A DNA stretch of 64,000 bases from an uncultured Verrucomicrobiae bacterium (GTDB lineage Bacteria > Verrucomicrobiota > Verrucomicrobiia > Limisphaerales > UBA11358), in contig CAVQPQ010000006.1 in the NCBI GenBank assembly GCA_963714695.1, forward strand, positions 321,971 through 385,970, in the 5' to 3' direction. The notes beneath the pieces were generated by a model that was given only the letters and a program-made list of their open reading frames with translations, was not told the origin of the DNA and made no database searches. The position numbers were made by a program, and so were the translations under genes. Below are positions 5,168-50,254 of this stretch, one piece after another. The first letter of the stretch is position 1. Every line of letters begins with the position of its first letter.

Positions 5168-7174
5168 TTAAAACGCCTGGCCCAGCGACTGGAGCTTCGC
5201 CTTGGTTTGAAGGTCTTCGGGATCGAGCCGCAACGCTTCCTGATACCATTTCACGGCTTCGGCGGTCTGCCCCTGTTTCACCAGCGCATCGCCAAGGTTG
5301 GCGTAAAGATGCGGATTGCCGGGCATAAGGCGGACCGCTTCGCGATATTGCCCCACAGCCTCGTCATAGCGGTGTTGAATGAACAGAACGGTGGCGAGAT
5401 TGTTGTGCGCGCTGACGGAATCCGGATTCACCTTCAACGCCTGCTCAAAACTGTCAATAGCCCCGGCGTATTGTTTCCGGGCGGACAACGCCATGCCCAG
5501 ATTGTTGAGGACTTCGGCCTGGTTCGGGGTGATTTGCAGGACACGAAGATAATAATCCACGGCTTCATCCCACCGGCCGAAGTGGCTCATGGCGTTGCCC
5601 AAGTTGAAGAGGGCGTCAACATTACTGGGCTTGATCCGCAGTGATTCCTGGAAGCACTCCACAGCCTCCGGGAACGCTCCGTGTCTCGACATCCAGAAGC
5701 CAAGATTGTTGCAGGCCACGTAGTCGTTCCCCGCCACGGTCCGGGCGTGGCCGAAAAGTGTCCCGCTGTCGTGCCAATATCCCACTTGCACCCGCGTACG
5801 CCACGCACAGCCAACGAGCAGGATGGCCGCCAGAAAACCCGTCACCGCACCGGGCACGCGCCAGCGTGCGCCCATCTCACCGGCACCCCAGACCAGAATA
5901 ATGAAGATGCCGGTCAACGGCAGATACATGTACCGGTCGGCCATGGCCTGATCGCCAACCTGGACCAAGCCGATAACCGGGACCAGCATCACAACAAACC
6001 AGAACCAGCCGACCAGCATAAAAGGAAATTCCCGTCCCCATCGGAAGGCGGCGGCGCAAAAGGCGGCGAACAACAACACGGCACCCAACACCGGCCAGAA
6101 CGGCCAATGCCCCGGATGCGGATAGGGAATGGCGAGGGTCATCGGCCAGATGGTCTTGCCCAGATAGCGGGCGTAGGAAACGAACACGTTGTTAATCCGC
6201 TCCGAAACGGAAAGAACCGTCAACGTCCCAACCGCGCCGCTCTTTTGCTGCACGATAAATGTCACCACGCACGAAATCGCGCTCAACAGGAAAAACGGCC
6301 ATTTCTCGCGAAACAAGATTGAAAGTTGAGGGTTGAGAGTTGAGAACTGAGGGACGGGAATTCCGAATTTTGTCACCTGCCACCTGCCACCGGTCATTCT
6401 TCCGAGCGGCCACCAGTCCAGCAACAACATTACCATGGGCAGCGTCACCAACATCGGCTTGCTCATCAGGCCCAACATAAAGAATAACAGTGCCAGACTA
6501 TAATCGAGGGTCCAGTGTCGGGAGTCGAGGACTGGAACGACTCGTGCGCTCGATTCTCGACTCCCCGGCGTGGCAGAGCAAAACGAAGACGGACCGACTC
6601 CAGGCTGTTTTTGGACGTACCGCATATATGCCCACAACGAGAGCAGTCCGAAAAAGGCGCTTAAAACATCCTTGCGCTCCGCCACCCACGCCACAGATTC
6701 GACGTGCAACGGATGCAGGGCAAACAGCGCTGCGATGAGCGCGCTCCGCCGGGTCGCCGCCGCCGGTGTGGCTGGCACCTTTATGTTTTCACCGGGACGA
6801 AAGCTCATCAGACGCCGGAGCAATAAGAAAAGCAACAGCGTGTTCGCCAGATGAAACAACAGATTGGTGAAATGTGGGCCGGCGGGGCCGGGGCCGAACA
6901 ATTGCGCATCCAGCATCAGCGACAACCACGTCAGCGGATGCCAGTTGCTCACATCACCCGTGGTAAAGGCCCAGACGACGTTTGTCCCCTTCAAGCCGGA
7001 CAAGACGTGAGGGTTGGTTGCATAATAATACGGGTCATCCAGGCTTAGAAAACCGCAGTGAACAACCGGCCAATAGACCCCCAACGTCACCAACACCAGC
7101 AACAGACCAATGCCCGCCGGCCTGGAAAACCGGCTCCACCGTTCGGCATCCGTCTGGGGTTCATGCAAAATCAT
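5168..7174 (-). CDS. multi-pass membrane protein with DUF1736/TMTC-like glycosyltransferase region and C-terminal TPR repeats
   Basis: 668 aa. HPLHVESVAWVAERKDVL motif, many TM helices and about six TPR units at the C-terminus. Carries two in-frame repeat insertions (6318-6394 and 6519-6567). Confidence 0.7.
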   Translation of the reverse strand: MILHEPQTDAERWSRFSRPAGIGLLLVLVTLGVYWPVVHCGFLSLDDPYYYATNPHVLSGLKGTNVVWAFTTGDVSNWHPLTWLSLMLDAQLFGPGPAGPHFTNLLFHLANTLLLFLLLRRLMSFRPGENIKVPATPAAATRRSALIAALFALHPLHVESVAWVAERKDVLSAFFGLLSLWAYMRYVQKQPGVGPSSFCSATPGSRESSARVVPVLDSRHWTLDYSLALLFFMLGLMSKPMLVTLPMVMLLLDWWPLGRMTGGRWQVTKFGIPVPQFSTLNPQLSILFREKWPFFLLSAISCVVTFIVQQKSGAVGTLTVLSVSERINNVFVSYARYLGKTIWPMTLAIPYPHPGHWPFWPVLGAVLLFAAFCAAAFRWGREFPFMLVGWFWFVVMLVPVIGLVQVGDQAMADRYMYLPLTGIFIILVWGAGEMGARWRVPGAVTGFLAAILLVGCAWRTRVQVGYWHDSGTLFGHARTVAGNDYVACNNLGFWMSRHGAFPEAVECFQESLRIKPSNVDALFNLGNAMSHFGRWDEAVDYYLRVLQITPNQAEVLNNLGMALSARKQYAGAIDSFEQALKVNPDSVSAHNNLATVLFIQHRYDEAVGQYREAVRLMPGNPHLYANLGDALVKQGQTAEAVKWYQEALRLDPEDLQTKAKLQSLGQAF
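6318..6394. repeat. two tandem heptamer arrays separated by a 21-nt spacer, in frame inside the TPR gene
   Basis: ATTGAAA GTTGAGG GTTGAGA GTTGAGA ACTGAGG (6318-6352), then a spacer, then CACCTGC CACCTGC CACCGGT (6374-6394). Confidence 0.75.
6519..6567. repeat. palindromic element inside the TPR gene
   Basis: CGGGAGTCGAG (6519-6529) ... CTCGACTCCCCG (6556-6567) terminal inverted repeats. Read through in frame. Confidence 0.6.
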
Positions 7175-7186
7175 CGGCGGTATTGA

Positions 7187-8614
7187 CTAAACCACAATTT
7201 CCAATTCCTGCCAATGCGGAATCAGATCCTTTGCCCGCTTATGAACAAACTTCAATGTCGGCCAATAGAGATTGATTCCGCGACAATTTGAGGCGGATTT
7301 CTTTGAGGATCGAGATGGAAAATGAAAAATCGGTTTAAGAATTTCGGGCGTTGGTTTGGCCAGGACGCTGGCTGTCCCACAGGATCCCGCCAGATAGGCT
7401 TGTTGCGGCGTGCCCAGAAAGCGCCCTCCGCCATCGGCTGTCCCATAGCATATCAAGAGGCTGCGCAGTTCCAGTTTTTGCCAGAGGGCCGAGCGGATCA
7501 GTGCAAAGAGCCGGGTAAAGCTGTGGCTCCACTGGCCCAGGTGGGCGCAGAAACGCAGGAGCACATAGGCCAGGAGTGCCGTCCAGACTTGCCATTTGAC
7601 GGCGTTGGCGTTGTGGCCGAGGAAATCGGCCAGTTGCAGGGTCTGTTTGAGTTCCTTGAAAAAGACCTCGATGCTCCAGCGGCAGCGATAGAGGTCGGCG
7701 ATGGTCTGGGCGCTCCACTCCAGGTTGTTGGTCAGAAAGACCATTTCCCGCCATTGCCCGTCCACTTCGACGAGGGCGGTGACGCGGCGCAGTTCGACCG
7801 GATAAACGGCTTGCACCGCCGGATTGGTCAGGACGATCAGGTCATCCCGCAGAATGTTACCCTCCGTGCCGTCCTGAAACTTGCGCACGACCCGGCATTG
7901 CAAATTGTCCTTGGCGCGGGTGACCCAAAAGACGCCGCGCTGGGACAAGTCGGCGAGATGGGCAAAATCGAGGTAAGCCTTGTCGAAGATGACGATTTCA
8001 CCCGCTTGAACATTGGCGCAAAGCTCGCGTGCCCGCCGGTTGTCGTGCTCACCGGCGGTGGCCACGATGGCGCAGCGGGGCAGAAAGGTTTGCAGGTCGA
8101 GGCGGACATGACACTTGGCCGCAGCCTTGCGGCGGCGGTGCTTGGCCCAGTCCAGCGAGCGGGCCATCAGTTGGATGGTGGTGGAGTCCACGACATGGAT
8201 GAGGCGCTTGAAGCGGAAGGCGAACTTCGGGCGACGGTTGCCGCCGAAAGCGGGCTGCAAAGTTTGCAAATGTTCCAGCACCGCCCAGAACAGTTGCTCG
8301 GCCATTTTCGGATCGCGTCGGCGGTTGGCGTGCGAGAGCGTGTTTTTGGGCGGCGGCGTGGCCCCGCGCAGTGCCGACAACGACCCGGAGTGCAGCCGCA
8401 GGGCGTCGCAGACGTCATTGAGACCGAGGCTGTGGGTGAGTTGGGCATAAAGCAGACTGACGACGTGACTCCACGGACTGAAAGTGCGGGCTTGATCATC
8501 CACGCCGGTCTCGTGTGCCAGTCGCGGCACCAGATGCGGCGGAATGAAGTTGCAAAGTTGGCGCAACAGCGAGAATTTGCTGGCGGTTGGCTTGTGTCGT
8601 GTTTGATTTTTCAT
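7187..8614 (-). CDS. IS4-family DDE transposase
   Basis: 475 aa. Y-(2)-R-(3)-E-(6)-K signature present (YRCRWSIEVFFKELK). The last ~22 codons (7187-7252) run out of the element into flanking DNA. Confidence 0.85.
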   Translation of the reverse strand: MKNQTRHKPTASKFSLLRQLCNFIPPHLVPRLAHETGVDDQARTFSPWSHVVSLLYAQLTHSLGLNDVCDALRLHSGSLSALRGATPPPKNTLSHANRRRDPKMAEQLFWAVLEHLQTLQPAFGGNRRPKFAFRFKRLIHVVDSTTIQLMARSLDWAKHRRRKAAAKCHVRLDLQTFLPRCAIVATAGEHDNRRARELCANVQAGEIVIFDKAYLDFAHLADLSQRGVFWVTRAKDNLQCRVVRKFQDGTEGNILRDDLIVLTNPAVQAVYPVELRRVTALVEVDGQWREMVFLTNNLEWSAQTIADLYRCRWSIEVFFKELKQTLQLADFLGHNANAVKWQVWTALLAYVLLRFCAHLGQWSHSFTRLFALIRSALWQKLELRSLLICYGTADGGGRFLGTPQQAYLAGSCGTASVLAKPTPEILKPIFHFPSRSSKKSASNCRGINLYWPTLKFVHKRAKDLIPHWQELEIVV

Positions 8615-8730: not shown

Positions 8731-10161
8731 CTATTTCCCGATGCAAAACTGGCTGAAGATGGAGTCGAGCAGGTCTTCCGTCGTCGTTTTGCCGACGATT
8801 TCGCCAACGACGTTGACGGCGATGCGCAATTCCCCCGCCGCCAGTTCCAATGTCTCATCGGCACGCAACACCTCCAGCGTCCGTTGTGTGGCCGCGCAGG
8901 CGCGGGTGAGCGCATCCTGATGTCGCGAGTTGATCATTACCTGCAACATCTCCGCCCTGATTTCGCCCGACCATACCAATTCCTTGATGGCGTCCTTCAA
9001 CGCCTCAATCCCCTGCCCGCTCAAGCAGCAAACCTCCATGATCGGAGCGCCGAGCACCAGATCGGCTCGTCCAGCAGCATCCGGAGATTCGTGCCGGGAC
9101 GGTGCCCGGCGCTCCAAAGCCAATTCCAGTTTCCTCGGCAAATCCATTTTGTTGACAACCAGAATCCGTTTCTTGCCGGCGAACTCGGCGAAATACTTTT
9201 CATCGGCGGGCGTAAGCGGTTCGCTGGCGTCGAGCACGTGCAAAATGAATTCGGCCCGGGCCAGCGACTCGCGGCTGCGGCGCACGCCTTCCTGCTCAAT
9301 TTCATCGCCCGCTTCGCGCAAACCCGCCGTGTCAATGAACACCACCGGCAGGCCGCGGATGTTCGCTGTTTCCTCAATCGTGTCGCGCGTCGTGCCCGCA
9401 ATCGGCGAGACGATGGCGCGGTCGTGGCCGAGCAATTGGTTGAGCAGGCTGGATTTGCCCGCATTGGGCCGGCCCACGATGGCCGCACGGATGCCGCGTC
9501 GGAGAATTTGCCCTTCATTGGCCGTGCGCAATAGTTCATCCATGAACGCGACACCATGTTCCAGCCGTTTGAGCAGTTGCTCCTTCGTGTCAGGCGAAAT
9601 GTCCTCGTCGGGAAAATCAATGTGCGCCTCGACGTGCGCTAGCGTCTGCATCATCTCATCGCGCAAGGCGTTGATGCGCTGTGACAGTTTGCCGGCAAGC
9701 TGTTCGTTGGCAGCGGCGAGCGCGAGTTCCGTGCGCGAATGAATCAAATCCGCAACGGCCTCAGCCTGCGCAAGATCAATGCGTCCATTGAGAAAGGCGC
9801 GGCGGGTGAATTCGCCGGGCTCGGCCAGGTGCGCGCCGTTTTCCAAAAGCGTGTCAAGCACGAGCTTGGCGGGCAAAAGGCCGCCGTGACAGGTGATTTC
9901 CACCGTATCCTCGCGCGTGAACGTGCGCGGCGCTCGCAGGACGGCCAGCAACACTTCCTCCACGCTCCGGCCCTGCCGTACGATTTTGCCGAATTGAATC
10001 GTGTGCGTAGGCGCGGCGGATGGTTTCAACGAATTTTTGCCGACCGGCAGAAAACTTTTATCTGCAATGGCGAGCGCCTGCGGCCCTGAAAGGCGGACGA
10101 CGGCCAGCCCGCCTTCGCCAAGTGGCGTGGCAATTGCGGCAATGGTGTCTTCGAGAATCAT
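8731..10161 (-). CDS. mnmE: tRNA modification GTPase MnmE (TrmE)
   Basis: 476 aa, G-domain motifs (GRPNAGKSSL, DTAG, NKMD) and the characteristic C-terminal CIGK. Confidence 0.95.
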   Translation of the reverse strand: MILEDTIAAIATPLGEGGLAVVRLSGPQALAIADKSFLPVGKNSLKPSAAPTHTIQFGKIVRQGRSVEEVLLAVLRAPRTFTREDTVEITCHGGLLPAKLVLDTLLENGAHLAEPGEFTRRAFLNGRIDLAQAEAVADLIHSRTELALAAANEQLAGKLSQRINALRDEMMQTLAHVEAHIDFPDEDISPDTKEQLLKRLEHGVAFMDELLRTANEGQILRRGIRAAIVGRPNAGKSSLLNQLLGHDRAIVSPIAGTTRDTIEETANIRGLPVVFIDTAGLREAGDEIEQEGVRRSRESLARAEFILHVLDASEPLTPADEKYFAEFAGKKRILVVNKMDLPRKLELALERRAPSRHESPDAAGRADLVLGAPIMEVCCLSGQGIEALKDAIKELVWSGEIRAEMLQVMINSRHQDALTRACAATQRTLEVLRADETLELAAGELRIAVNVVGEIVGKTTTEDLLDSIFSQFCIGK

Positions 10162-10175: not shown

Positions 10176-10207
10176 ACGCAAAGTCGCAAAGACGCAAAGA
10201 TTGAAGT
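10176..10207. repeat. tandem octamer array
   Basis: ACGCAAAG TCGCAAAG ACGCAAAG ATTGAAGT, in the 45-nt gap upstream of the mnmE start. Confidence 0.7.
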
Positions 10208-19341: not shown

Positions 19342-19343
19342 GG

Positions 19344-19778: not shown

Positions 19779-19791
19779 AATTCAAGGATAG

Positions 19792-19823
19792 AGTCCAAAG
19801 TCCAAAGCCCAAAGCCCAAAGTC
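19792..19823. repeat. tandem heptamer array (single arm)
   Basis: AGTCCAA AGTCCAA AGCCCAA AGCCCAA AGTC, 14 nt upstream of the DUF309 gene start. Confidence 0.8.
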
Positions 19824-23534: not shown

Positions 23535-23542
23535 TAAAGAAA

Positions 23543-23570
23543 GGTGACAGGTGACAGGTGACAGGTGACA
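23543..23570 (+). repeat. (GGTGACA)x4 tandem heptamer array, left arm of cassette
   Basis: Four perfect units starting 8 nt after the parB stop. Reverse complement of the array at 23969-23996. Confidence 0.9.
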
Positions 23571-23965
23571 AGAAAGAAAGCAAACCGGCAGATTCTTACG
23601 ATCGGTTGGAGTCTTTCGGCATCTACCAACTCGCCCGCCAGCTTTTCGGTGATTTTTGGAATGATTCAGGAATACTAAGCAAAGATTTTCGCGGACGAGA
23701 ATTGGTCAAACAACAGGTCCGCAGCCTGGATTCCGTTTGTGCGAATATGGAGGAAGGTTTTGGCCGTGGTTTTGGTAAGGAATTACCGCAACATCTAAAA
23801 ATCTCCCGTAGCGAAGCAAGAGAAAGTCGAGGCCGATACGAACGGTGCAATCGCCTGCTTCCGCCTGAAACCATTGCACAACGGGTTTCCGCCCTGAGCC
23901 GCATTATCGGCGGTCTGAGCAAAACCATTCAAACCATTGAGAGTCGCGCCCGCCGGCAGCCTTGA
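23558..23965 (+). CDS. four-helix-bundle protein (23S rRNA intervening-sequence protein family, TIGR02436/PF05635-like)
   Basis: 135 aa. Family pattern seen in YQLARQL...FRGRELVKQQVRSLDSVCANMEEGFGR...L.ISRSEARESRG. The GTG start lies inside the left heptamer array. Confidence 0.75.
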   Translation: MTGDKKESKPADSYDRLESFGIYQLARQLFGDFWNDSGILSKDFRGRELVKQQVRSLDSVCANMEEGFGRGFGKELPQHLKISRSEARESRGRYERCNRLLPPETIAQRVSALSRIIGGLSKTIQTIESRARRQP

Positions 23966-23968
23966 TCT

Positions 23969-23996
23969 TGTCACCTGTTACATGTCACTTGTCACC
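23969..23996 (+). repeat. TGTCACC-type heptamer array, right arm of cassette
   Basis: TGTCACC TGTTACA TGTCACT TGTCACC, the inverted complement of (GGTGACA)x4 with three substitutions. Ends 5 nt before the def start. Confidence 0.9.
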
Positions 23997-27903: not shown

Positions 27904-29108
27904 ACAATTTCGACCGGGAATTGACTGAACGACTTGAAGCCTTGAGTGCACAAGGCTTGCGCCGCGAACTGCGCCGTGTGGATTCGCCAACCGGCACGCG
28001 CATCCAAATCGGCTGCCGGATGCTGCTGAATTTTTCATCCAACGATTATCTCGGCCTTGCCAACGATCCAGTTTTAAAAGATGCGGCAATCAAAGCCGTG
28101 GAAAAATTCGGCGCTGGTGCCGGCGCGTCCCGGTTGATTTGTGGTTCGCTCGCGCCGCATCATAAACTGGAAGAGGCCCTCGCCAGTTTCAAAAACGCCG
28201 ATGCCGCGCTGAGTTTCTCGACCGGCTACGCCACCGCCATTGGTACCATCTGCGCGTTGCTCGGCAAAGATGACGTGATTGTCTTGGACAAACTCGTTCA
28301 CGCCTGCATCGTGGACGCCGCCCGGCTCAGCGGCGCGAAAATCCGTGTCTTCGCCCACAACGATTTGGATGACCTGGAGAAAATTCTCCGTTGGAGTTCA
28401 ACCTTTAGGCTGCCTGTCAACACGCTGAAGCGTGAACTCCAACCACCGCGCACGCTCATCGTAACTGAAAGTATTTTTTCGATGGACGGCGATGTTGCGC
28501 CATTGCGCGAAATCGTGGCGCTCAAGGAAAAATACGGCGCGTGGCTGATGGTGGACGAGGCGCACGCCACCGGGCTTTACGGAAAAAACCGTCGCGGCCT
28601 GACGGAAGAATCCGGCGTGAGCGGCCAGATCGAAGTTCAAATGGGGACGCTGGGCAAGGCGGTGGGGGCTTCGGGCGGTTACATTTGCGGCTCGCGTCCA
28701 TTGATTGATTTTCTCATCAACCGCGCCCGCAGTTTCATTTTCAGCACCGCGCCCGTCCCGGCCGCCGCCGCCGCCGCCACCGCCGGCATTCGCCTTATTC
28801 AATCGAAAGCTGGAGCCGACCGCCGGGACAGACTTTTTGAGCGTATCAACGAATTGAATCCGCAATCCGCAATCCGCAATCCGCGATTAAAGAGCGCCAT
28901 CATCCCGGTTCTAATCGGCGACGAATCTAAAGCGGTTGCGGCTTCCGCCGCGTTGCGCGAGCGGGACATTTTTGTTCCCGCGATTCGTTATCCGACCGTG
29001 GCCCGTGGCAAGGCGCGTTTGCGTGTAACCGTGACCGCTAACCACACAACCGAAGAGATCAAACTGCTCGCCGCCACGCTGAACGAAATCGTAAATCGTA
29101 AATCGTAA
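27900..29108 (+). CDS. bioF: 8-amino-7-oxononanoate synthase
   Basis: LNFSSNDYLGL and the SMDGD...DEAHATG...GTLGKA PLP-lysine region. GTG 27900 overlaps the upstream stop (GTGA) and gives an N-terminal length like known BioF. ATG 27876 is the alternative start. Confidence 0.85.
   Translation: MNNFDRELTERLEALSAQGLRRELRRVDSPTGTRIQIGCRMLLNFSSNDYLGLANDPVLKDAAIKAVEKFGAGAGASRLICGSLAPHHKLEEALASFKNADAALSFSTGYATAIGTICALLGKDDVIVLDKLVHACIVDAARLSGAKIRVFAHNDLDDLEKILRWSSTFRLPVNTLKRELQPPRTLIVTESIFSMDGDVAPLREIVALKEKYGAWLMVDEAHATGLYGKNRRGLTEESGVSGQIEVQMGTLGKAVGASGGYICGSRPLIDFLINRARSFIFSTAPVPAAAAAATAGIRLIQSKAGADRRDRLFERINELNPQSAIRNPRLKSAIIPVLIGDESKAVAASAALRERDIFVPAIRYPTVARGKARLRVTVTANHTTEEIKLLAATLNEIVNRKS
28392..28441 (+). 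repeat. palindromic element, family A, in frame in bioF
   Basis: TGGAGTTCA...TGAACTCCA. Translated as WSSTFRLPVNTLKRELQ. Confidence 0.85.
28857..28884 (+). repeat. (AATCCGC)x4 tandem heptamer array inside bioF
   Basis: Four perfect units followed by GATTAA. Translated as NPQSAIRNPR. A related array lies at 29422-29442 in bioA. Confidence 0.85.
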
Positions 29109-29113
29109 ATCAA
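29086..29113 (+). repeat. (AAATCGT)x3 + AAATCAA heptamer array spanning the bioF stop codon
   Basis: Encodes the last residues (EIVNRKS*) of BioF. Inverted counterpart at 31127-31154. Confidence 0.85.
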
Positions 29114-29121: not shown

Positions 29122-30648
29122 ATGCACCCGCTCGCCAAACTTGATCATGAGTTCGTCTGGCATCCCTTTACCCAGATGCGCGACTGGCTGAAGCGCGATC
29201 CGGTGGTCATTGTCGCGGGCAAAGGCGCGGTTTTGCGCGACGTGCATGGACGTGAATATCTCGATGCAAATTCTTCCATCTGGACGAATCTGCACGGCCA
29301 TAATCATCCGAAGATCAACACCGCCATCCAGCGGCAACTTAAAAAAATCGCACACTCCTCGGCACTCGGCTTGGCAAATGAACCAGCGAGCCTGTTGGCG
29401 GAAAAACTGCTCCGGGCAGCCAATCCGCAATCCGCAACTCCGATTAATCGCGAGCACGCGACGAAAGTCGGTGTCGAGAATCGCAAATTCACAAAAGTAT
29501 TTTTCAGCGATGATGGTTCGACGGCACTCGAAGTAGCCCTCAAGCTCGCCTACGAATTTACGCGGCGCACCCGGAGTGGGGACAACCGGCCCGCAAGTCG
29601 CCGTCGAAGCGAACCACGTTTTTTCTCCCTCGAACGCGCGTATCACGGCGACACTGTCGGCGCGGTTTCGGTTGGCCACATAGATTTGTTTCACAAAAGT
29701 TATTCCGGTTTGCTGTTCAAGACGGACAAGGTCATGTCGCCATATTGCTATCGGTGTCCGTTCAATCGCGCAAAGCCGGAGCGCGCCGACGCCCGTGAAT
29801 ATCGCAAATGCGACTGGGAATGCGTTGGCTTGGTGGAAAAGAAATTCGCCGCGCAAAAACGAAAGGGAAATTCCTACGCGGCGTTCGTCTTCGAGCCGTT
29901 GATTCAAGGCGCTGCCGGAATGATCCCGCAGCCGTCCGGCTGGCTGCGGCGGGCAACCGAAATCGCCCGCGGCCACGGCGCGCTGCTCATCGCGGACGAA
30001 GTCATGACCGGATTTGGCAGAGTAGGACAGACATCTTGCCTGTCTCCATCTTCAAAACAAATTAGAGACAGGTTGGAAGCCTGTCCTACGTTGTTTGCCT
30101 GTCAGCATGAAAATGTGCAGCCGGATTTTCTGTGCCTGGCCAAGGGCCTGACCGGCGGTTACCTGCCCATGGCGGCGACCTTGACGACGCAAAAAGTATT
30201 CGATGCCTTTCTGGGCGAATACGGCGAATTTAAAACCTTTTTCCACGGCCACAGTTACACGGCCAATCAGCTCGGCGCGGCGGCGGCACTGGCGAGCCTG
30301 GATATTTTGCAAAACGACAAATCCATTCGCACGCGGAAAAATCTCGAAAAGAATTTGCACGACGAATTGCAGACGCTCTGGTCGTTGCCCAACGTCGGCG
30401 ACATCCGGCAGGTTGGTTTGATTGCCGGCATCGAGCTGGTGAGGAACTGGCGGACGCGCGAGCCGTTTGATTTGCGCGAACGCGCGGGCATTCGCGTTTG
30501 CGAGGCAATGGCGCGGCGCGGCGTGCTCACGCGGCCCGTTGGCAACGTCATCGTGCTGATGCCGCCCTATTGTACGACGCCAACGCAAGTTGGGAGGATG
30601 GTGCGCGTCGTTTTTGATTCAATCCGCGAAGTTTTTGGCCGCCGGTAG
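29122..30648 (+). CDS. bioA: adenosylmethionine-8-amino-7-oxononanoate aminotransferase
   Basis: 508 aa, class-III aminotransferase motifs (ADEVMTGFGR, CLAKGLTGG). About 70-80 aa longer than typical BioA because of repeat-derived insertions. Confidence 0.9.
   Translation: MHPLAKLDHEFVWHPFTQMRDWLKRDPVVIVAGKGAVLRDVHGREYLDANSSIWTNLHGHNHPKINTAIQRQLKKIAHSSALGLANEPASLLAEKLLRAANPQSATPINREHATKVGVENRKFTKVFFSDDGSTALEVALKLAYEFTRRTRSGDNRPASRRRSEPRFFSLERAYHGDTVGAVSVGHIDLFHKSYSGLLFKTDKVMSPYCYRCPFNRAKPERADAREYRKCDWECVGLVEKKFAAQKRKGNSYAAFVFEPLIQGAAGMIPQPSGWLRRATEIARGHGALLIADEVMTGFGRVGQTSCLSPSSKQIRDRLEACPTLFACQHENVQPDFLCLAKGLTGGYLPMAATLTTQKVFDAFLGEYGEFKTFFHGHSYTANQLGAAAALASLDILQNDKSIRTRKNLEKNLHDELQTLWSLPNVGDIRQVGLIAGIELVRNWRTREPFDLRERAGIRVCEAMARRGVLTRPVGNVIVLMPPYCTTPTQVGRMVRVVFDSIREVFGRR
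29422..29442 (+). repeat. AATCCGC AATCCGC AACTCCG heptamer array inside bioA
   Basis: Followed by ATTAATCG, as in the bioF copy. Translated as NPQSATP. Confidence 0.8.
30022..30089 (+). repeat. palindromic element, family B, in frame in bioA
   Basis: GTAGGACAGACATCTTGCCTGTCTCCATCTTCAAAACAAATTAGAGACAGGTTGGAAGCCTGTCCTAC. Translated as VGQTSCLSPSSKQIRDRLEACPT, between GFGR and LFAC. Confidence 0.9.
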
Positions 30649-31126: not shown

Positions 31127-31154
31127 ATTTGCGATTTGCGATTTGCGATTTACG
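31127..31154 (+). repeat. (ATTTGCG)x3 + ATTTACG heptamer array
   Basis: Inverted complement (with A/G differences) of the AAATCGT array at 29086-29113. Sits in the 43-nt divergent gap between the EVE gene and yggS. Confidence 0.85.
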
Positions 31155-31162
31155 ATAACAGC

Positions 31163-32323: not shown

Positions 32324-32329
32324 AGGAAA

Positions 32330-32689: not shown

Positions 32690-32737
32690 GGAGACAGTTA
32701 AGCGCGTGCCGGCGCTCAGGTCAATTCACGATTCTGA

Positions 32738-33204: not shown

Positions 33205-33225
33205 ACCGCGAAACCTGCGAAGAAA

Positions 33226-33357
33226 AATGACTAAATCCTAAATCCGAATGACGAAAGAAATCCCAATGACCGAATAACGAATTAATCGTCCGGGGAAATG
33301 ATTTGTCATTGGGATTTCGTCATTCTTTAGTCATTTGGCCTTCGTCATTAGTCATTT
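33226..33357. repeat. long imperfect hairpin element, family G (GTCATT/AATGAC-rich)
   Basis: AATGACGAAAGAAATCCCAATGAC pairs with GTCATTGGGATTTCGTCATT, with further AATGAC / GTCATT units at both ends. Related copies at 49413-49546 and 50141-50254. Confidence 0.85.
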
Positions 33358-33363
33358 CCCCTC

Positions 33364-37320: not shown

Positions 37321-38628
<1,308 letters not shown>

Positions 38629-38735
38629 TTAAACTTCAAAATCCGAAGCGGATATGGTAAAAGTTGCACGCAGCGAGTCAAGAAGGCGTTGTTTAGAATT
38701 CTCCGTGAAAGGCGGCCAGCGGGAAAATCCGCCGT

Positions 38736-41481: not shown

Positions 41482-41530
41482 GGCAGCTTTGCGATTGCCA
41501 ATCGCCGGCTGGCCTGTTATTCATTTCCCC

Positions 41531-41597
41531 GGCAATGGAGTTTGCCATTCCCGCATGGGAAAACCGCCTGACTGTATCAGCGCTGATGACTCCTACC
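41531..41597 (+). promoter_or_regulatory. fluoride riboswitch (crcB RNA motif)
   Basis: GGCAAUGGAGUUUGCC ... AAACCGCC ... GCUGAUGACUCCUACC matches the conserved crcB-motif core, including the GGAGU/ACUCC pseudoknot. An extra small hairpin UCCCGCAUGGGA is inserted after P1. Located 40 nt upstream of crcB. Confidence 0.85.
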
Positions 41598-41636
41598 GAT
41601 GCCCGTTAATTCGCGGTCATTGGCAGGAGTATTTTT

Positions 41637-44718: not shown

Positions 44719-44860
44719 TGATGTTTTACTGCACCCATTTCTTGCTTTTGGCTGCGAGGGGGTTAAACTTTAAGCAGGCAATGGGGTTTGCCTCCCGCAC
44801 GCGGAAAAACGCCTTCCGGCTAATAACTCCTACCAAAACAAAATGAAATGGTAGTGGGTT

Positions 44861-46099: not shown

Positions 46100-46197
46100 G
46101 CCGCCAGGGCCCATGGAATGTGGACTTACGAACCCCGCCAGGGCCGGAAGGCAGCAACGGTAGTTTGCTCCGTATCTGCCGTGGTCACCCTGGCATT
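46100..46197 (+). ncRNA. ffs: signal recognition particle RNA (small 4.5S type)
   Basis: CAGGGCC-GGAA-GGCAGCA matches the conserved domain IV apex (consensus CAGGUCC-GGAA-GGAAGCA). The outer stem GCCAGGG (46103-46109) pairs with CCCUGGC (46188-46194), and CCAUGG pairs with CCGUGG. Positioned directly upstream of dnaX. The ends are approximate. Confidence 0.7.
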
Positions 46198-46274
46198 TTT
46201 TAATTTTGAGTTTTTAATTTTGAGTTTTAAGTTCCTCTGCTTCAACTTAAAACTTAAAATTTAAAACTAAAAAT
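46195..46274. repeat. inverted heptamer-array hairpin (TTTTGAG/TTTTAAG versus CTTAAAA)
   Basis: TTTTTAA TTTTGAG TTTTTAA TTTTGAG TTTTAAG - loop - CTTAAAA CTTAAAA TTTAAAA CTAAAAA. Lies between the SRP RNA and dnaX. Confidence 0.85.
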
Positions 46275-46277
46275 TCC

Positions 46278-48056
46278 GTGTCTTATCAAGTCATCGCCAG
46301 AAAATACCGCCCGCAGCGGTTTGCCGACGTGGTCGGGCAGGAACACGTTACCCAGACGCTCGCCAACGCCATCGAGCAGAAACGCATCGCGCACGCCTAC
46401 CTGTTCTGCGGCCCGCGCGGCACGGGCAAGACCACCATCGCCCGCATTTTTGCCAAATGCCTGAATTGCACCGGCGGCCCGAAAACCGCCTTCGACGACC
46501 TGGATTCGCGCTGCATTGAAATTGCCGAGGGCCGCTCGCTCGACGTTCTGGAAATTGACGGCGCCAGCAACAACGGCGTCGAGCAGGTCCGCGAACTCCG
46601 CGAAACGTGCAAGTACGCGCCCGCCAATTCACAGTTCAAAATCTACATCATTGACGAGGTCCACATGCTCTCGACGGCGGCGTTCAACGCGCTGCTCAAG
46701 ACACTCGAAGAGCCGCCGGCGCACGTGAAGTTCATGTTCGCCACGACCGACCCGGAGAAGGTTTTGCCAACCATCCTTTCGCGCTGCCAGCGATTCGACC
46801 TGCGCCGGATTCCCTCCGCGCTCATCACCAAACACCTCGCCCACGTCGCAAAACAGGAAAAGGTAAAAATTGACGAGGCGGCGCTCCACGCCATCGCCCG
46901 CGGCGCGGATGGCGGCATGCGCGACGCCGAATCCACGCTCGACCAGTTGATTAGTTTTTGCGGCGACAAAATCGAGGAAGCCGACGTGCTTTCCATGTTC
47001 GGTCTGGCCGCGCAAAGCCAGATTCTCGGTTTGAGCCAGGCCGTCCTGGCCGGTGAAATCCAGACCGCGCTTACCGAACTAAGCGAACTCGCGCAAAACG
47101 GCAAAGACCTTGGCCGCCTGCTCTCCGACCTGTTGAATCATTTCCGCAACCTGCTCATTTTCCAGGTGGCGCGCGGCGATCTGAACTTGCTCGAAGTGTC
47201 CGAAGCCGAAGTCGCGGCGTTGAAAGAACAGTCAGGGCTGGCCGACACTGCGACCCTCACGCGAATCCTCGAAGTGCTGACCGATGCCGAACTTCGGCTG
47301 CGCGACATTTCATCCAAGAAAATCCTGCTGGAAGTCGCGATGCTCAAGGCCATCGAGGCGCGCAACGCCGTCAGCCTCGATGCCGTCCTGAAACATCTCA
47401 ACCAATTGCGCGGCGGCCAAAGTAGCGCGGGCATCCCGCCGGCGCCTGCGGCATCCGTCCCGGTAGAGCGCCGGGCCCCGGCCCGGCTCGAAACGGAGGG
47501 GCCAAAAACCGTCCACCCGCTGGCCGGGGCGGTGCCCGGCGCTCCTGCTGCTTTGGCCGAAACATCGCCGGTGTCGGACAATCTGGCCGGGTTGTGGACC
47601 AGGCTGATTGAAGCCGTTGGTCGCGTCAGCCCTTTCACGCGGAGTTATCTCGTGGACGCCAATCCGGTTTCGTTCGACAAAAACCTGCTCACGATTGGCT
47701 TCGATCCCGAATTTGCCGACCATCTCGGCCTGGTGGACAACGCACGCAACCACACGTTGCTCCAGACCAAACTGGCCGAACTCGGCCACGCAGACGCGCA
47801 GATCAAATTCGTAAAAGTTGAAGCGTCTGCGGCAACCACGAAGCAAAACGAGGGCGTTGGAGTTCAAGCTTCAGCTTGTTCGGCAGACACGTTAAAGCGT
47901 GAACTCCAACCAGCCAAACCAGTTGCGGCGACGGCACCCGCCGCAAAGGGAAAACCGGTGTCCGCCCCCTTCAACAAAAATGATTTCAAAAACGACCCAT
48001 TGATTCAAAAAGCTCTGGAAATTTTCAAAGGCCAGATTGTGGAAGTCCGCGCCTGA
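46278..48056 (+). CDS. dnaX: DNA polymerase III subunit gamma/tau
   Basis: 592 aa, Walker A GPRGTGKTT, zinc module CxxC, SRC motif. In-frame family A element at 47858-47908. Confidence 0.95.
   Translation: MSYQVIARKYRPQRFADVVGQEHVTQTLANAIEQKRIAHAYLFCGPRGTGKTTIARIFAKCLNCTGGPKTAFDDLDSRCIEIAEGRSLDVLEIDGASNNGVEQVRELRETCKYAPANSQFKIYIIDEVHMLSTAAFNALLKTLEEPPAHVKFMFATTDPEKVLPTILSRCQRFDLRRIPSALITKHLAHVAKQEKVKIDEAALHAIARGADGGMRDAESTLDQLISFCGDKIEEADVLSMFGLAAQSQILGLSQAVLAGEIQTALTELSELAQNGKDLGRLLSDLLNHFRNLLIFQVARGDLNLLEVSEAEVAALKEQSGLADTATLTRILEVLTDAELRLRDISSKKILLEVAMLKAIEARNAVSLDAVLKHLNQLRGGQSSAGIPPAPAASVPVERRAPARLETEGPKTVHPLAGAVPGAPAALAETSPVSDNLAGLWTRLIEAVGRVSPFTRSYLVDANPVSFDKNLLTIGFDPEFADHLGLVDNARNHTLLQTKLAELGHADAQIKFVKVEASAATTKQNEGVGVQASACSADTLKRELQPAKPVAATAPAAKGKPVSAPFNKNDFKNDPLIQKALEIFKGQIVEVRA
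47858..47908 (+). repeat. palindromic element, family A, in frame in dnaX
   Basis: TGGAGTTCAAGCTTCAGCTTGTTCGGCAGACACGTTAAAGCGTGAACTCCA. Translated as GVQASACSADTLKRELQ. Confidence 0.9.
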
Positions 48057-49412: not shown

Positions 49413-49546
49413 AATGACGAATGACGAAACCCTGATGACTAAAAAATGCCAAATGCCGAATTTCAAAATACCCGTGGCTGCCGGGAATAATTCGTCATTG
49501 GGTTTTAGTCATTCTTTCGTCATTCGAGCTTAGTCATTCGTCATTC
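49413..49546. repeat. long imperfect hairpin element, family G
   Basis: Starts AATGACG AATGACG and ends GTCATTC GTCATTC. Fills the entire ybaB-recR gap to the nucleotide. Confidence 0.85.
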
Positions 49547-49547
49547 C

Positions 49548-50156
49548 ATGTCCGTTCTTCCCGAATCCATTATCGCGCTGATTTCCGCGCTGAGCAAGCT
49601 GCCCGGCGTCGGGCCGCGTTCCGCGGAGCGCATCGCCTTGCATCTGGTCCAGGCTGATTCGGCGGAGGTGAAACAACTGGCGGATATCATTGTTCACGCC
49701 CGCGAGAAAATTCATTTTTGCACCGCCTGCGGCGCATTGACCGAAAAATCCCCCTGCCCGATCTGTGACGATGCCCGGCGCGATGTGTCGTTGGTGTGCG
49801 TGGTCGAGCACGCGGTGGACATTTTGAGCGTTGAAAAATCCGGCGCCTACCGCGGCAAATTTCACGTGCTTGGCGGAAAAATATCCCCGCTCGACGGCGT
49901 GGAGCCGGAGGACCTGCGCATCGCTGAATTGGAAAAACGGCTGGCGCGCGAGCCGGTCAGAGAAATCATCATTGCGCTGGGCACGGACGTGGAAGGCGAC
50001 GCGACGAGTTTCTATCTGGCCAAACGGCTGGCGCGCGAAGGACTTAAAATTTCCCGCATCGCCTATGGTTTGCCCGCAGGGAGCGGTTTGGAATTTGCTG
50101 ACGAACTGACTTTGAGCCGCGCACTGGAGGGGCGGCGAGAAATGACCGGCGAATGA
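49548..50156 (+). CDS. recR: recombination protein RecR
   Basis: 202 aa, HhH motif (LPGVGPRSAERIA), C4 zinc finger, Toprim domain. Confidence 0.95.
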   Translation: MSVLPESIIALISALSKLPGVGPRSAERIALHLVQADSAEVKQLADIIVHAREKIHFCTACGALTEKSPCPICDDARRDVSLVCVVEHAVDILSVEKSGAYRGKFHVLGGKISPLDGVEPEDLRIAELEKRLAREPVREIIIALGTDVEGDATSFYLAKRLAREGLKISRIAYGLPAGSGLEFADELTLSRALEGRREMTGE

Positions 50157-50254
50157 CCCATGACGAAACCATAATGACCAAATGGCGTATGGATTGTGTT
50201 TCGTCATTTGAGCTTGGTCATTCCTTCGTCATTCGGATTTAGGCATTAGACATT
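50141..50254. repeat. long imperfect hairpin element, family G
   Basis: AATGACCGGCGAATGACCCATGACGAAACC ... TTTCGTCATTTGAGCTTGGTCATTCCTTCGTCATTCGG. Its first 16 nt encode the RecR C-terminus. Confidence 0.8.

What the first reader, a model, noticed from the sequence alone, without database searches (positions are those of the whole stretch)
6318..50254. A class of short tandem heptanucleotide arrays with locus-specific unit sequence, frequently arranged as inverted pairs
At least ten loci carry 3-5 tandem 7-nt units. The unit sequence differs between loci but the architecture recurs:
- 6318-6352: GTTGAGA type, paired with 6374-6394 (CACCTGC)
- 19792-19823: AGTCCAA/AGCCCAA
- 23543-23570 and 23969-23996: GGTGACA and its complement
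- 28857-28884 and 29422-29442: AATCCGC
- 29086-29113 (AAATCGT) versus 31127-31154 (ATTTGCG)
- 46195-46274: TTTTGAG/TTTTAAG versus CTTAAAA
- the AATGACG / GTCATTC ends of the family G hairpins
A period-8 relative sits at 10176-10207. The arrays occur in intergenic gaps, at gene termini and inside coding regions. A conserved period with a non-conserved unit sequence does not look like decay of a single repeat family. It suggests either a generating mechanism (for example replication or recombinase slippage with a 7-nt step) or selection for register-tolerant stems. I do not recognise this as a described element class.
Basis: seen in the sequence. Interest (0 to 1): 0.65.

Follow-up and report, generated by a model that had tools for sequence, protein, structure and literature searches.

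The report
Four-copy heptanucleotide repeat modules, Verrucomicrobia
This soil verrucomicrobial genome and its whole order (Limisphaerales) are peppered with about 30-base modules of four tandem 7-base units, which sit just before start codons, form the arms of hairpins, and are even read in frame inside housekeeping enzymes; they are a new branch of a known but still unexplained kind of bacterial repeat.

Summary
The arrays are real. Exact period-7 arrays of at least 2.5 copies: 6 in the window, 0 in 30 shuffles, with periods 8-15 nearly absent. The excess recurs in 1.2 Mb from 80 related Limisphaerales MAGs and in 0.64 Mb of unrelated metagenome contigs.

Parts of the description fail. Units come from a restricted repertoire shared between loci and genomes. 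Only about a quarter to a third of arrays have an inverted partner. Two of the listed pairs are not inverted.

Arrays are typically 4.0-4.7 units long. They lie 0-15 nt upstream of start codons. They form the arms of hairpins and of a cassette carrying a 23S-rRNA-IVS-type gene. They are also translated in frame in fixed loop "slots" of BioF, BioA and other proteins. In those slots arrays, hairpins and an 18-36-nt mini-element replace one another quickly.

The class is already described: heptanucleotide simple-sequence repeats, cyanobacterial STRRs, Beggiatoaceae TAACTGA repeats, and Geobacter elements of four heptanucleotide repeats.

My reading is that these are dispersed 4x7 repeat modules, homogenised in 7-nt register. 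Most are selfish or neutral, and a conserved leader subset is probably functional. The generating mechanism is unresolved. This is a new variant of a known kind.

The parts
6318..6352 (-). Five degenerate heptamer units (CTCAACY on the - strand), read in frame (..PQFSTLNPQLS..) inside ORF 5168-7174, which has a TPR C-terminal domain.
6374..6394 (-). About 3 units of GGTGGCA type on the - strand, in the same ORF. It is not complementary to the 6318 array.
10176..10207 (-). Octamer array (ACGCAAAG x3.1), 14 nt upstream of the mnmE start codon (10161, - strand).
19792..19823 (-). AGTCCAA/AGCCCAA x4.6, 13 nt upstream of the GTG of a DUF309 gene (19344-19778, -). Position, unit family and copy number are kept in L002, L004, L008, L020 and L202.
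23542..23570 (+). (AGGTGAC)x4.1: the left arm of the stem around the IVS-protein gene. It contains that gene's GTG start and Shine-Dalgarno-like AGGTGA.
23558..23965 (+). ORF of the PF05635 family (23S rRNA intervening-sequence protein, a four-helix bundle), enclosed by the two arms.
23967..23996 (+). Degenerate (NNGTCAC)x4.1: the right arm, complementary to 23542-23570.
28390..28443 (+). In-frame hairpin ('hairpin A', ..SSTFRLPVNTLKRELQPP..) in BioF slot R1. In other genomes the same slot holds heptamer arrays.
28857..28884 (+). (AATCCGC)x4.0 in BioF slot R2, translated as NPQSAIRNPR.
29086..29111 (+). (AAATCGT)x3.7. It encodes the last residues and the stop of BioF (..EIVNRKS*) and ends 10 nt before the bioA ATG.
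29421..29437 (+). Left part of an (AATCCGC) array in BioA, interrupted by the mini-element.
29438..29473 (+). 36-nt mini-element CTCCGATTAATCGCGAGCACGCGACGAAAGTCGGTG (12 codons, ..TPINREHATKVGV..) inserted in the array.
31127..31156 (+). (ATTTGCG)x3 + ATTTACG + AT. This is a leader array 6 nt before the likely ATG (31163) of the yggS-like gene, and the complement of the AAATCGT family.
33226..33349 (-). Hairpin with degenerate AATGAC/GTCATT heptamer-like arms, between the EamA stop and the cupin-gene start.
38610..38632 (-). Degenerate A/T-rich period-7 tract abutting the enolase start codon.
46202..46233 (+). Left arm (TTTTGAG/TTTTTAA units) of the hairpin that immediately follows the SRP RNA (46102-46198).
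46244..46275 (+). Right arm (AACTTAA/AAATTTA units). It ends 2 nt before the dnaX GTG (46278).
49413..49545 (+). Hairpin with AATGACG/GTCATTC-type arms that fills the ybaB-recR spacer. It ends 2 nt before the recR ATG.
50213..50234 (+). GTCATTC-type units in the recR-HAD hydrolase spacer (weak periodicity).

Best explanation
The arrays are one kind of small dispersed repeat module that is typical of the whole order Limisphaerales (Verrucomicrobiota). Each module is about 27-33 nt, made of four (4.0-4.7) tandem heptanucleotides drawn from a limited repertoire of related units (AAATCGT, AATCCGC, AAAGCGG, ACTCCGC, AGTCCAA, AACATCC, CCCTCGA, GGTGACA and others).

Shown:
- The modules occupy fixed 'slots': operon spacers that end 0-15 nt before a start codon, and surface loops of proteins, where they are read in frame as hydrophilic peptides.
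- In the loop slots, arrays of different unit, in-frame hairpins and an 18-36-nt mini-element replace one another on a short evolutionary time scale.
- Two modules of complementary unit form the arms of long stems. Examples are the hairpin after the SRP RNA, a 250-nt composite hairpin in a relative, and the cassette that carries an IVS-protein gene.
- The arrays are the preferred host of the mini-element.

Inferred:
- The units of an array are kept alike by a copy-number-neutral process in 7-nt register. Candidates are slipped-strand or template-switch conversion, or contraction and re-expansion by three units.
- Modules spread between already occupied slots.
- Most copies are selfish or neutral passengers, filtered by what a leader or a protein loop tolerates.
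- A conserved subset probably has a post-transcriptional role, as a single-stranded protein-binding platform or as pairing partners. This subset is the AAATCGT/ATTTACG family before bioF, bioA and yggS, and the AGTCCAA array before the DUF309 gene.

What sets the 7-nt step and the four-unit length is not known, here or in any of the published cases.
For: - Period-7 excess in the window and in two independent samples.
- Array lengths peak at 27-31 nt and almost none exceed 34 nt, in coding regions and in spacers.
- Arrays recur at the same positions around bioF/bioA in 80 genomes, with different units. They are in frame, flanked by conserved protein sequence. Slot R1 is a 14-residue insertion relative to solved BioF structures.
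- Restricted repertoire: identical units in 2.4% of array pairs from different genomes and sites, against 0.065% for random heptamers. For different sites of one genome the figure is 8.2%, 5 of 61.
- The same array lies in many contexts: DNA and RNA contig depth is 10-1000 times the flanks, with discordant flanking sequence.
- Slot turnover in 120 BioF orthologues: 6 x 4 occupants, 18 of 24 combinations seen. The same occupant is found in 91% of pairs at least 97% identical, in about 48% at 93-97%, and at chance level below that.
- Only +/-3-unit length variants occur in frame.
- Slot polymorphism between close relatives.
- The mini-element sits inside arrays at three sites. It occurs in more than 120 metagenome contigs with a lag-7 signal in its flanks. 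In coding regions it is 55 sense against 5 antisense.
- The IVS-protein cassette has a stem of about 26-28 pairs with 4 compensatory pairs. Hairpins fold with z-scores of -4 to -7.
- Leader arrays: 48 of 76 non-CDS arrays lie 30 nt or less from a start codon. The yggS leader array keeps its 30-31-nt span in most of the 46 genomes compared, by eye roughly 40 counting degenerate copies, down to about 72% protein identity.
- Published precedents.
Against: - No enzyme or mechanism of spread was identified.
- The within-genome sharing statistic rests on 5 of 61 pairs.
- Many of the arrays counted are orthologous (the bioF/bioA neighbourhood), so counts are not independent.
- Slot shuffling could instead come from homologous recombination between lineages carrying old alleles.
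- Gene calls outside BioF and the window are my own codon-usage calls.
- No whole genome was available, so copy numbers per genome are unknown.
- No experimental or read-level evidence bears on function. The RNA data are metatranscriptome contigs, which can contain DNA.
- A purely mutational origin by polymerase slippage is not excluded for the birth of arrays.
Confidence: 0.6

Rival explanations
1. The arrays are plain microsatellites. Replication slippage with a preferred 7-nt step (the hypothesis of Mrazek et al. 2007) creates them in place from local sequence. They have no function and do not spread between loci.
For: - Heptanucleotide repeats are the commonest long simple-sequence repeat class in repeat-rich prokaryotes (PMC4679880 citing Mrazek 2007).
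- +/-3-unit variants occur in frame.
- Unit variants shift position inside otherwise constant arrays between close relatives.
- In one relative (L204) the BioA site carries about 1.4 native copies of AATCCGC, which could seed an array.
Against: - The length ceiling at about 4.7 units is sharp. There is one array of 10.9 copies and nothing else above 34 nt.
- The same units recur at unrelated loci and in many genomes, 37 times random expectation.
- Array sequences reach very high depth in metagenomes.
- Occupants of a slot are replaced wholesale, including by hairpins.
- Arrays inside essential reading frames are perfectly homogeneous, which stepwise +/-1-unit slippage cannot produce.
- The leader array keeps a constant length across the order.
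Confidence: 0.15
2. The arrays are primarily functional cis-elements. Four heptamers form a platform for a single-strand RNA-binding protein (S1, cold-shock or CsrA type, as proposed for TAACTGA repeats). Alternatively, complementary arrays form regulated long-range RNA duplexes that act as RNase III sites or occlude start codons. On this view the copies in genes are by-products.
For: - 48 of 76 non-CDS arrays end 30 nt or less before a start codon, with a peak at 5-15 nt.
- The yggS leader array and its flank are conserved, with fixed length, across the order.
- The trio of AAATCGT before bioF and bioA and its complement before yggS is conserved.
- The stem of the IVS-protein cassette shows compensatory changes.
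- Similar positions and proposals exist for TAACTGA and Nostoc heptamer repeats.
- (AGGTGAC)n supplies a Shine-Dalgarno-like motif and a GTG start.
Against: - Units differ between leaders, so one sequence-specific factor cannot read them all.
- 96 of 157 arrays are inside coding regions.
- Loop slots turn over at chance level beyond about 7% protein divergence.
- G.U pairs show no excess on the sense transcript, and mismatches repeated in every unit are left uncompensated.
- Short operon spacers force any spacer element to lie near a start codon.
Confidence: 0.2
3. The arrays are contingency loci. Changes in copy number switch genes on and off by frameshift or by promoter spacing (phase variation).
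For: Heptanucleotide tracts do this in Haemophilus (hmw1A) and in E. coli neuO (titles). A 7-nt unit shifts the reading frame.
Against: - The host genes are housekeeping enzymes (BioF, BioA, DnaX).
- Among 120 BioF orthologues and 80 loci, every array keeps the frame, and the only length variants are +/-3 units.
- No 7-nt indels appear in metagenome contigs.
- Four copies is too few for frequent slippage.
Confidence: 0.02
4. All arrays are fragments of one known MITE or REP consensus, or are assembly artefacts.
For: Some arrays are arms of longer hairpin elements.
Against: - There are many unrelated units, and no common flanking consensus.
- No Rfam family other than SRP RNA, tRNA and fluoride riboswitches was found in the window.
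- The arrays are present in short-read MAGs, long-read MAGs, JGI contigs and RNA contigs from many studies.
Confidence: 0.03

Closest known systems
Geobacter metallireducens 'H4' elements: four tandem heptanucleotide repeats (GGGACCG/GGACCGG) at 49 sites, plus families of 5 x MTYCTGA and 4 x an octanucleotide (Aklujkar et al. 2009, PMC2700814)
   Same: Exactly four tandem 7-nt units per element. Many dispersed copies. [quoted passage not shown] An octamer relative exists. Function unknown (annotated as putative regulatory elements).
   Different: One GC-rich unit per family in a deltaproteobacterium. GGGACCG is absent here. No report of orthologous-slot turnover, in-frame translation analysis, hairpin arms or embedded mini-elements.
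Cyanobacterial STRR / tandem heptameric repeats, and the small dispersed repeats (SDR) embedded in them (Mazel et al. 1990 and Elhai et al. 2008 from my own knowledge, papers not held; bioRxiv 10.1101/2022.06.06.494920)
   Same: Several heptamer unit families per genome. Dispersed. Near start codons or promoters. Function unsettled. Very small (about 20-30 nt) elements sit inside heptamer arrays or hairpins. That matches the 18-36-nt element found here inside arrays or as hairpin loops.
   Different: Different phylum. The STRR1-3 units are absent. Cyanobacterial arrays can be much longer. Here the length is clamped at about 4 units and many copies are translated inside conserved enzymes.
TAACTGA direct repeats of marine Beggiatoaceae, some cyanobacteria and Bacteroidetes (MacGregor 2015, PMC4679880)
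   Same: Heptamer, 2-6 copies, mostly a few nucleotides upstream of start codons. The forward orientation has stops in all three frames, as (AAATCGT)n does here. The reverse orientation is translatable. A post-transcriptional role has been proposed.
   Different: A single unit sequence, almost only intergenic. TAACTGA repeats are absent here.
Long simple sequence repeats with 5-11-nt units (Mrazek, Guo and Shah 2007, as summarised in PMC4679880)
   Same: A statistical excess of tandem repeats in which heptanucleotides are the commonest class. A 7-nt polymerase contact was proposed as the cause.
   Different: That work is a genome-statistics category. It noted that units in multiples of three dominate in coding regions, whereas here 7-nt arrays are common in coding regions. 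No Verrucomicrobia case turned up in my literature searches, which do not cover most subscription journals.
Rickettsia palindromic elements (Ogata et al. 2000, 2002; reviewed in PMC10969869)
   Same: Selfish repeats inserted in frame into unrelated housekeeping genes at positions compatible with the fold. The hairpins here in BioF, BioA, DnaX and MnmE behave in the same way.
   Different: Rickettsia palindromic elements are about 100-150-bp palindromes, not tandem heptamers. Alternative occupants swapping in one slot have not been reported for them.
Intervening sequences of 23S rRNA that carry a PF05635 ORF inside a stem (own knowledge of Leptospira and Coxiella IVSs)
   Same: An ORF of the same family is enclosed by a long stem (window 23542-23996).
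   Different: Here the cassette lies between protein genes (parB-like and def), not in rRNA. The arms are heptamer arrays. Processing by RNase III is untested.

Membership tests
Long simple sequence repeats, heptanucleotide class (Mrazek 2007) | Tandem repeats of a 5-11-nt unit that are longer or more frequent than expected for the genome's composition | tested here: met
   6 against 0 in shuffles; 95 against 2 for period 8 in relatives; 20 against 2 in the second sample
Long simple sequence repeats, heptanucleotide class (Mrazek 2007) | Copy-number variability produced by slippage | tested here: inconclusive
   Only +/-3-unit in-frame variants were seen, along with shifting unit variants at constant length. 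No read-level data.
Cyanobacterial STRR | Tandem heptanucleotide units in several families, many dispersed copies per genome | tested here: met
   Depth over the arrays. Per-genome copy number was not measured.
Cyanobacterial STRR | STRR1-3 unit sequences (CCCCAGT, TTGGTCA, CAACAGT; from memory) and a cyanobacterial host | tested here: not met
   0 tandem occurrences in 2.03 Mb. The host is Limisphaerales.
TAACTGA direct repeats | Unit TAACTGA | tested here: not met
   0 occurrences
TAACTGA direct repeats | Position a few nucleotides upstream of start codons, forward orientation not translatable | tested here: met
   Met for the AAATCGT family and other leader arrays. Not met for the arrays inside genes.
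Geobacter H4 elements | Four tandem heptanucleotide repeats at many intergenic and intragenic sites | tested here: met
   Length peak at 27-31 nt; 96 of 157 arrays inside coding regions
Geobacter H4 elements | Consensus GGGACCG/GGACCGG with conserved flanks alignable by BLAST | tested here: not met
   0 occurrences; flanks are unrelated
MITE / REP | Terminal inverted repeats around a non-coding core, target-site duplication, and a cognate transposase or RAYT | tested here: inconclusive
   Composite hairpins with array arms exist. Solo arrays have no inverted repeats. Target-site duplications were not examined. The one transposase in the window (IS4-type, 7187-8614) shows no link to the arrays.
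Phase-variable contingency loci | Frame- or spacing-changing copy-number polymorphism in surface or modification genes | tested here: not met
   All arrays are in frame in housekeeping genes, with +/-3-unit variants only
Small dispersed repeats of Nostoc (for the embedded mini-element) | A dispersed element of about 20-30 nt found inside tandem heptamer repeats or hairpins, at non-orthologous sites | tested here: met
   There is no sequence relation to the Nostoc elements, so the match is 'works like', not membership.

The most novel reading that the evidence does not exclude
A dedicated, still unknown mechanism writes and replaces about 30-nt modules (four copies of a 7-nt template), hairpins and mini-elements at fixed slots, including inside essential genes. 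It might be a reiterative, template-copying polymerase or reverse transcriptase, possibly linked to the Avd-like IVS-protein cassettes. The result would be a natural cassette-exchange system that makes hypervariable loops in housekeeping proteins and standardised leaders before genes. The same process would underlie the unexplained heptamer repeats of cyanobacteria, Geobacter and Beggiatoaceae.
Probability: 0.12. Interest if true: 0.85.

Novelty: new variant of a known kind. Interest (0 to 1): 0.6.

Why it matters
Tandem heptanucleotide repeats have been noted since 1990 in cyanobacteria, and later in Geobacter and Beggiatoaceae. Nobody knows what sets the 7-nt step, how they spread or what they do.

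This lineage adds a fourth, unrelated phylum with an unusually clean data set:
- module length is clamped at four units;
- the unit repertoire is limited;
- leader copies are conserved next to loop copies that turn over fast;
- a mini-element uses the arrays as its landing pad;
- hundreds of metagenome-assembled relatives allow turnover to be timed against protein divergence.

Together these make the open question testable by comparative genomics. They also show that conserved enzymes (BioF, BioA, DnaX, MnmE) tolerate continual in-frame replacement of loop segments by repeat DNA. That is relevant for annotation, for MAG assembly (contigs break at the arrays) and for protein-loop engineering.

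Tried and rejected
1. Excess of direct partners: arrays with a same-unit direct partner within 1.5 kb numbered 22, against about 20 in permuted controls, so there is no excess. Inverted partners numbered 23 against about 10.
2. RNA-level selection on stems: G.U on the sense transcript 29, A.C 43, other mismatches 42 in 26 hairpins. There is no asymmetry.
3. Phase variation was rejected.
4. The idea that inverted arrays 340-430 nt apart always enclose an IVS-protein gene is wrong. In L037 both arrays lie inside one 359-residue protein.
5. The hairpin after the SRP RNA does not match the simple intrinsic-terminator pattern.
6. The mini-element region has no significant fold (z = -0.2).
7. Copy-number variation could not be read from Logan contigs. 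Contigs break at the arrays and no 7-nt indels were listed.
8. Elhai 2008 and Mrazek 2007 are not held. What I say about them rests on citing papers or on memory.
9. My strict classifier for 'mini-element inside an array' was too stringent (14 of 117). The lag-7 autocorrelation of the flanks (0.37-0.39 against about 0.26) is the usable result.
10. A BirA-operator reading of (TCGTAAA)n before bioF was considered and dropped. It was not tested, and the same family also precedes yggS.

Full report

TRF finds 51 tandem repeats in the window, and about 20 of them have period 7 at the coordinates given. Exact arrays of at least 2.5 copies number 6 for period 7, against 0 in 30 dinucleotide-preserving shuffles. 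At 3 or more copies the count is 4 against 0. Periods 8-15 give 0-1. A mismatch-tolerant count gives 7 for period 7, 0-3 for other periods and 0 in shuffles. A 50-kb stretch of E. coli K-12 has none. The core observation is solid and far above chance.

**What organism is this, and is the feature general?**

The window carries ordinary chromosomal genes:
- clpC, mnmE, frr, rpoN, def, bioF, bioA, eno, dnaX, ybaB and recR;
- the SRP RNA, two fluoride riboswitches and one tRNA.

Near-identical DNA occurs in soil and peat metagenomes. A scan of one genome per species with the BioF protein returned 80 loci. Nearly all are MAGs labelled Verrucomicrobiota, Limisphaerales or Pedosphaera, with at most 81% protein identity to the window's BioF.

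In these 1.22 Mb, exact arrays of 3 or more copies number 95 for period 7, against 22, 17, 19 and 2 for periods 6, 5, 4 and 8. In a second sample of 0.64 Mb, fetched for a different reason and masked around the bait, the counts are 20 against 2 for period 8. The excess is therefore a property of the order, not of this window. It also appears in short-read MAGs, long-read MAGs, JGI contigs and RNA contigs, so it is not an assembly artefact.

**Anatomy of the arrays**

- *Length.* Exact array lengths are bimodal. There is a tail at 19-20 nt, which is made of pieces of imperfect arrays, and a peak at 27-31 nt (4.0-4.4 units). Almost nothing exceeds 34 nt; one array has 10.9 copies. This holds in coding regions and in spacers.
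- *Units.* Units are not free. A few related families dominate: AAATCGT, AATCCGC, AAAGCGG, ACTCCGC, AAATCGC, AATTCAA, AGTCCAA, AACATCC, CCCTCGA and GGTGACA.
- *Unit sharing.* Two arrays from different genomes and different sites have the identical unit in 2.4% of pairs, against 0.065% for random heptamers. Different sites of the same genome share the unit in 8.2% of pairs (5 of 61, small numbers). The same site in different genomes shares it in 7.7%.
- *Within the window.* AATCCGC occurs in bioF and in bioA. GGTGACA-type units occur at 23542, 23967 and 6374. AAATCGT and its complement occur at 29086 and 31127.
- *Dispersal.* Metagenome and metatranscriptome contig depth over (AATCCGC)4 is 81-469 in DNA runs and 770-1290 in RNA runs. 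The flanks sit at roughly 6-40 in the DNA runs and 0-40 in the RNA runs. Many contigs share the array but not its flanks.

So 'locus-specific unit' is not correct.

**Where the arrays sit: leaders**

Of 76 arrays outside coding regions, 48 end within 30 nt of a start codon, with a peak at 5-15 nt. Many of these are orthologous, so the count is not independent. In the window:
- (AAATCGT)3.7 supplies the last residues and the stop of BioF and ends 10 nt before the bioA ATG.
- (ATTTGCG/ATTTACG)4.3 ends 6 nt before the yggS-like ATG.
- AGTCCAA x4.6 lies 13 nt before the DUF309 GTG.
- The octamer array lies 14 nt before mnmE.
- A degenerate A/T-rich tract abuts the eno start.
- The right arm of the hairpin after the SRP RNA ends 2 nt before dnaX.
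- The ybaB-recR hairpin ends 2 nt before recR.
- (AGGTGAC)4 contains the GTG of the IVS-protein gene.

(AAATCGT)n has TAA in all three frames, like the TAACTGA repeats of Beggiatoaceae. The yggS leader array is conserved in position and in its 30-31-nt span in most of the 46 genomes compared, by eye roughly 40 counting degenerate copies, down to about 72% protein identity. It shows point changes but no indels, while the sequence further upstream differs completely between genomes. Close relatives differ only in which unit variant sits at which position: GGGA in the window, GAAA in L202. The DUF309 leader behaves likewise. Sense AAATCGT before bioF and bioA, with its complement before yggS, is a conserved trio.

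**Where the arrays sit: inside genes**

96 of 157 arrays in the first sample lie inside predicted coding regions. For BioF this is certain. The arrays are flanked on both sides by conserved protein sequence in the same frame. (AATCCGC)4 is read as NPQSAIRNPR.

Across 80 genomes, arrays recur at the same positions: the bioF start, two internal sites R1 and R2, the stop, and three sites in bioA. Their units differ. At R1 and R2 a given genome carries one of three things: a heptamer array, a strong in-frame hairpin, or a short sequence with no repeat (only one genome, at R1). In the window, R1 holds hairpin 28390-28443, with a fold energy of -24.6 kcal/mol and z = -4.2. R1 is a 14-residue insertion relative to solved BioF structures.

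On the sense strand these arrays are rich in A and C (66%). That fits selection for hydrophilic loop peptides, and it explains the orientation bias without invoking RNA function.

Other hairpin families of the window are also in frame in DnaX, MnmE and BioA, and they share peptides with the BioF slot alleles.

**Turnover in the slots**

Among 120 BioF orthologues (74-100% identity):
- R1 holds one of six occupants: two hairpins and four array families.
- R2 holds one of four occupants.
- 18 of the 24 combinations occur.

Pairs that are at least 97% identical in the conserved columns share the occupant in 91% of cases. Pairs at 93-97% share it in about 48%. Below 93% sharing is at chance level.

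Length variants of an array in frame differ by exactly three units, which is seven residues: KNIQH[PTSNIQH]RKR against KNIQHRKQ, and KSEI[GNRKSEI]P against KSEIP.

Spacers show the same slot behaviour:
- Downstream of the SRP RNA, relatives carry an ATTTACG-type array in an insert of 99 nt. The window has 86 nt there, the TTTTGAG/TTTTTAA hairpin.
- The parB-def spacer holds the IVS-protein cassette in six genomes. It holds an AATGAC-type hairpin in a relative with 88% BioF identity.
- The amidohydrolase-bioF junction is empty in the window. In that same relative it holds a 250-nt composite hairpin with (ATTTNCG)n and (TCGTAAA)4 arms, -115.8 kcal/mol.

**Inverted pairs**

6318/6374 are unrelated units, and 28857/29422 are direct repeats. 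The real ones are these:
- 23542/23967. The stem has about 26-28 pairs around the PF05635 ORF. In five genomes, 4 pairs show compensatory changes at the variable positions of the unit.
- 46202/46244. Arms of 32 nt, 91% complementary, z = -6.8.
- The AATGAC-type hairpins.

Across all the data, inverted partners within 1.5 kb number 23 against about 10 in a permuted control, clustered at 40-77 nt and at 335-425 nt. Direct partners show no excess. With imperfect arms allowed, about 29 short hairpins are found among 184 arrays. So a quarter to a third of arrays are hairpin arms, and most are solo.

In these hairpins, G.U pairs on the sense transcript (29) are not commoner than A.C (43). Several hairpins inside coding regions carry the same mismatch in every unit. 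Each arm is therefore homogenised on its own, faster than pairing is restored. That argues against stems as the general reason the arrays exist.

**A mini-element that lives in the arrays**

The window's BioA array parses as AATCCGC AATCCGC AA[36 nt]TC... The same 36-nt insert (CTCCGATAAATCGCGAGCACGCGACGAAAGTCGGTG) sits in an (AATCCGC)4.3 array in BioF slot R2 of three genomes, and at the BioF stop of a fourth. A 21-nt version sits in an (AACATCC)n array in slot R1 of another.

It is found inside heptamer arrays, often degenerate CAACGYC types and sometimes as two copies per array. It is also found as the loop of hairpins with locus-specific stems. Its flanks show lag-7 autocorrelation of 0.37-0.39, against about 0.26 at other lags.

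About half of the copies lie in predicted coding regions: 55 sense and 5 antisense. They use only the two frames without a stop, read as TPINRE[HQ]A or NSDKSRA. Further inserts nested inside the element occur. As far as I recall, this matches the behaviour reported for the small dispersed repeats of Nostoc (Elhai et al. 2008). That paper is not held, so the comparison is a lead from memory.

**What it most likely is**

The arrays are dispersed repeat modules of four heptanucleotides. They are one component of a dense landscape of small repeats (arrays, hairpins, mini-element) that occupy and exchange fixed slots in Limisphaerales genomes.

Shown: the period excess, the clamped length, the restricted and shared repertoire, in-frame translation, slot turnover, use as hairpin arms, hosting of the mini-element, and conservation of some leader arrays.

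Inferred:
- Units are homogenised by a copy-number-neutral process in 7-nt register.
- Modules are copied between occupied slots.
- Most copies are selfish or neutral and are filtered by what the position tolerates.
- The conserved leader family has a post-transcriptional role.

Not explained: why 7, why 4, and how arrays inside an essential frame stay perfectly homogeneous when only +/-3-unit steps are viable (note 7).

**Comparison with what is known**

- Heptanucleotide repeats are the commonest class of long simple-sequence repeats in repeat-rich prokaryotes. A 7-nt polymerase contact was proposed as the cause (Mrazek et al. 2007, as summarised in PMC4679880).
- Cyanobacteria have STRR/heptamer repeats near start codons and promoters, and their function is unsettled.
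- Marine Beggiatoaceae have TAACTGA repeats just upstream of start codons.
- Geobacter metallireducens has an element of exactly four tandem heptanucleotide repeats at 49 intergenic and intragenic sites, plus 5 x 7 and 4 x 8 families (PMC2700814). This is the closest precedent.
- In-frame selfish repeats are known from Rickettsia.

None of the published units occurs here. I found no paper describing such repeats in Verrucomicrobia, though the searches do not cover most subscription journals.

The lineage is new. So are the multi-unit repertoire with clamped length, the slot turnover inside conserved enzymes, the array-borne mini-element, and the IVS-protein cassette with array arms.

**Verdict**

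This is a new variant of a known kind, of moderate to high interest, because it offers a tractable comparative system for a repeat class that has lacked a mechanism for more than thirty years.

Noticed in passing
window 29438-29473; L002, L003, L004, L006, L008; L081-L200: An 18-36-nt mini-element (core TCCGATAAATCGCGAGCA) is dispersed in more than 120 soil and peat metagenome contigs. It sits inside heptamer arrays or as hairpin loops. About half of the copies are in frame in predicted proteins (TPINRE[HQ]A or NSDKSRA).
   Followed up: yes
window 28390-28443 (BioF), 47856-47910 (DnaX), 30022-30089 (BioA), 55922-56055, 9044-9115 (MnmE), 47466-47544 (DnaX), 2272-2351, 32737-32818: At least three families of strong hairpin repeats. 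Several are inserted in frame in housekeeping proteins and share peptides between genes (for example ..TLKRELQP.. in BioF and DnaX, and ..DRLEACPTL in BioA and in BioF of relatives).
   Followed up: partly
window 23558-23965: A PF05635 gene (23S rRNA intervening-sequence protein, four-helix bundle, Avd-like) lies between a parB-like gene and def. It is enclosed by a stem of about 26-28 pairs. It is present at this site in six genomes and absent in a close relative (L202).
   Followed up: partly
window 41522-41602 and 44768-44839: Two fluoride riboswitch aptamers (Rfam RF01734, 44.7 and 47.9 bits) lie 3 kb apart, each upstream of + strand genes.
   Followed up: no
window 7187-8614 (-): A DDE transposase (PF01609 with DUF4372, IS4-like) lies next to the ORF that carries the 6318/6374 arrays. 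No link to the arrays was found.
   Followed up: no
window 30706-31119 (-): An EVE-domain gene lies between bioA and the yggS-like gene. It is absent from relatives L202, L204 and L206, yet the sequence GGTTCATGTAAA at its start is conserved in them.
   Followed up: partly
window 540-4991: A gene with a UVR motif, an ATP:guanido phosphotransferase (McsB-like) and a ClpC-type AAA+ gene lie in a row. This is the mcsA-mcsB-clpC arrangement, better known from Firmicutes.
   Followed up: no
window 28761-28785: A GCC x8.3 trinucleotide run in bioF encodes a conserved poly-alanine stretch (PAAAAAATA) that is present in all orthologues. It is coding conservation, not a repeat element.
   Followed up: partly
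L046 7209-7284: The only long heptamer array seen: (GATGTTC)x10.9, inside a predicted ORF.
   Followed up: no
window 19000-34000 in runs X1-X7: Logan contigs of metagenomes systematically break at the arrays and hairpins, because these are repeated in the community. MAGs of this group are therefore likely to be fragmented at such sites.
   Followed up: partly
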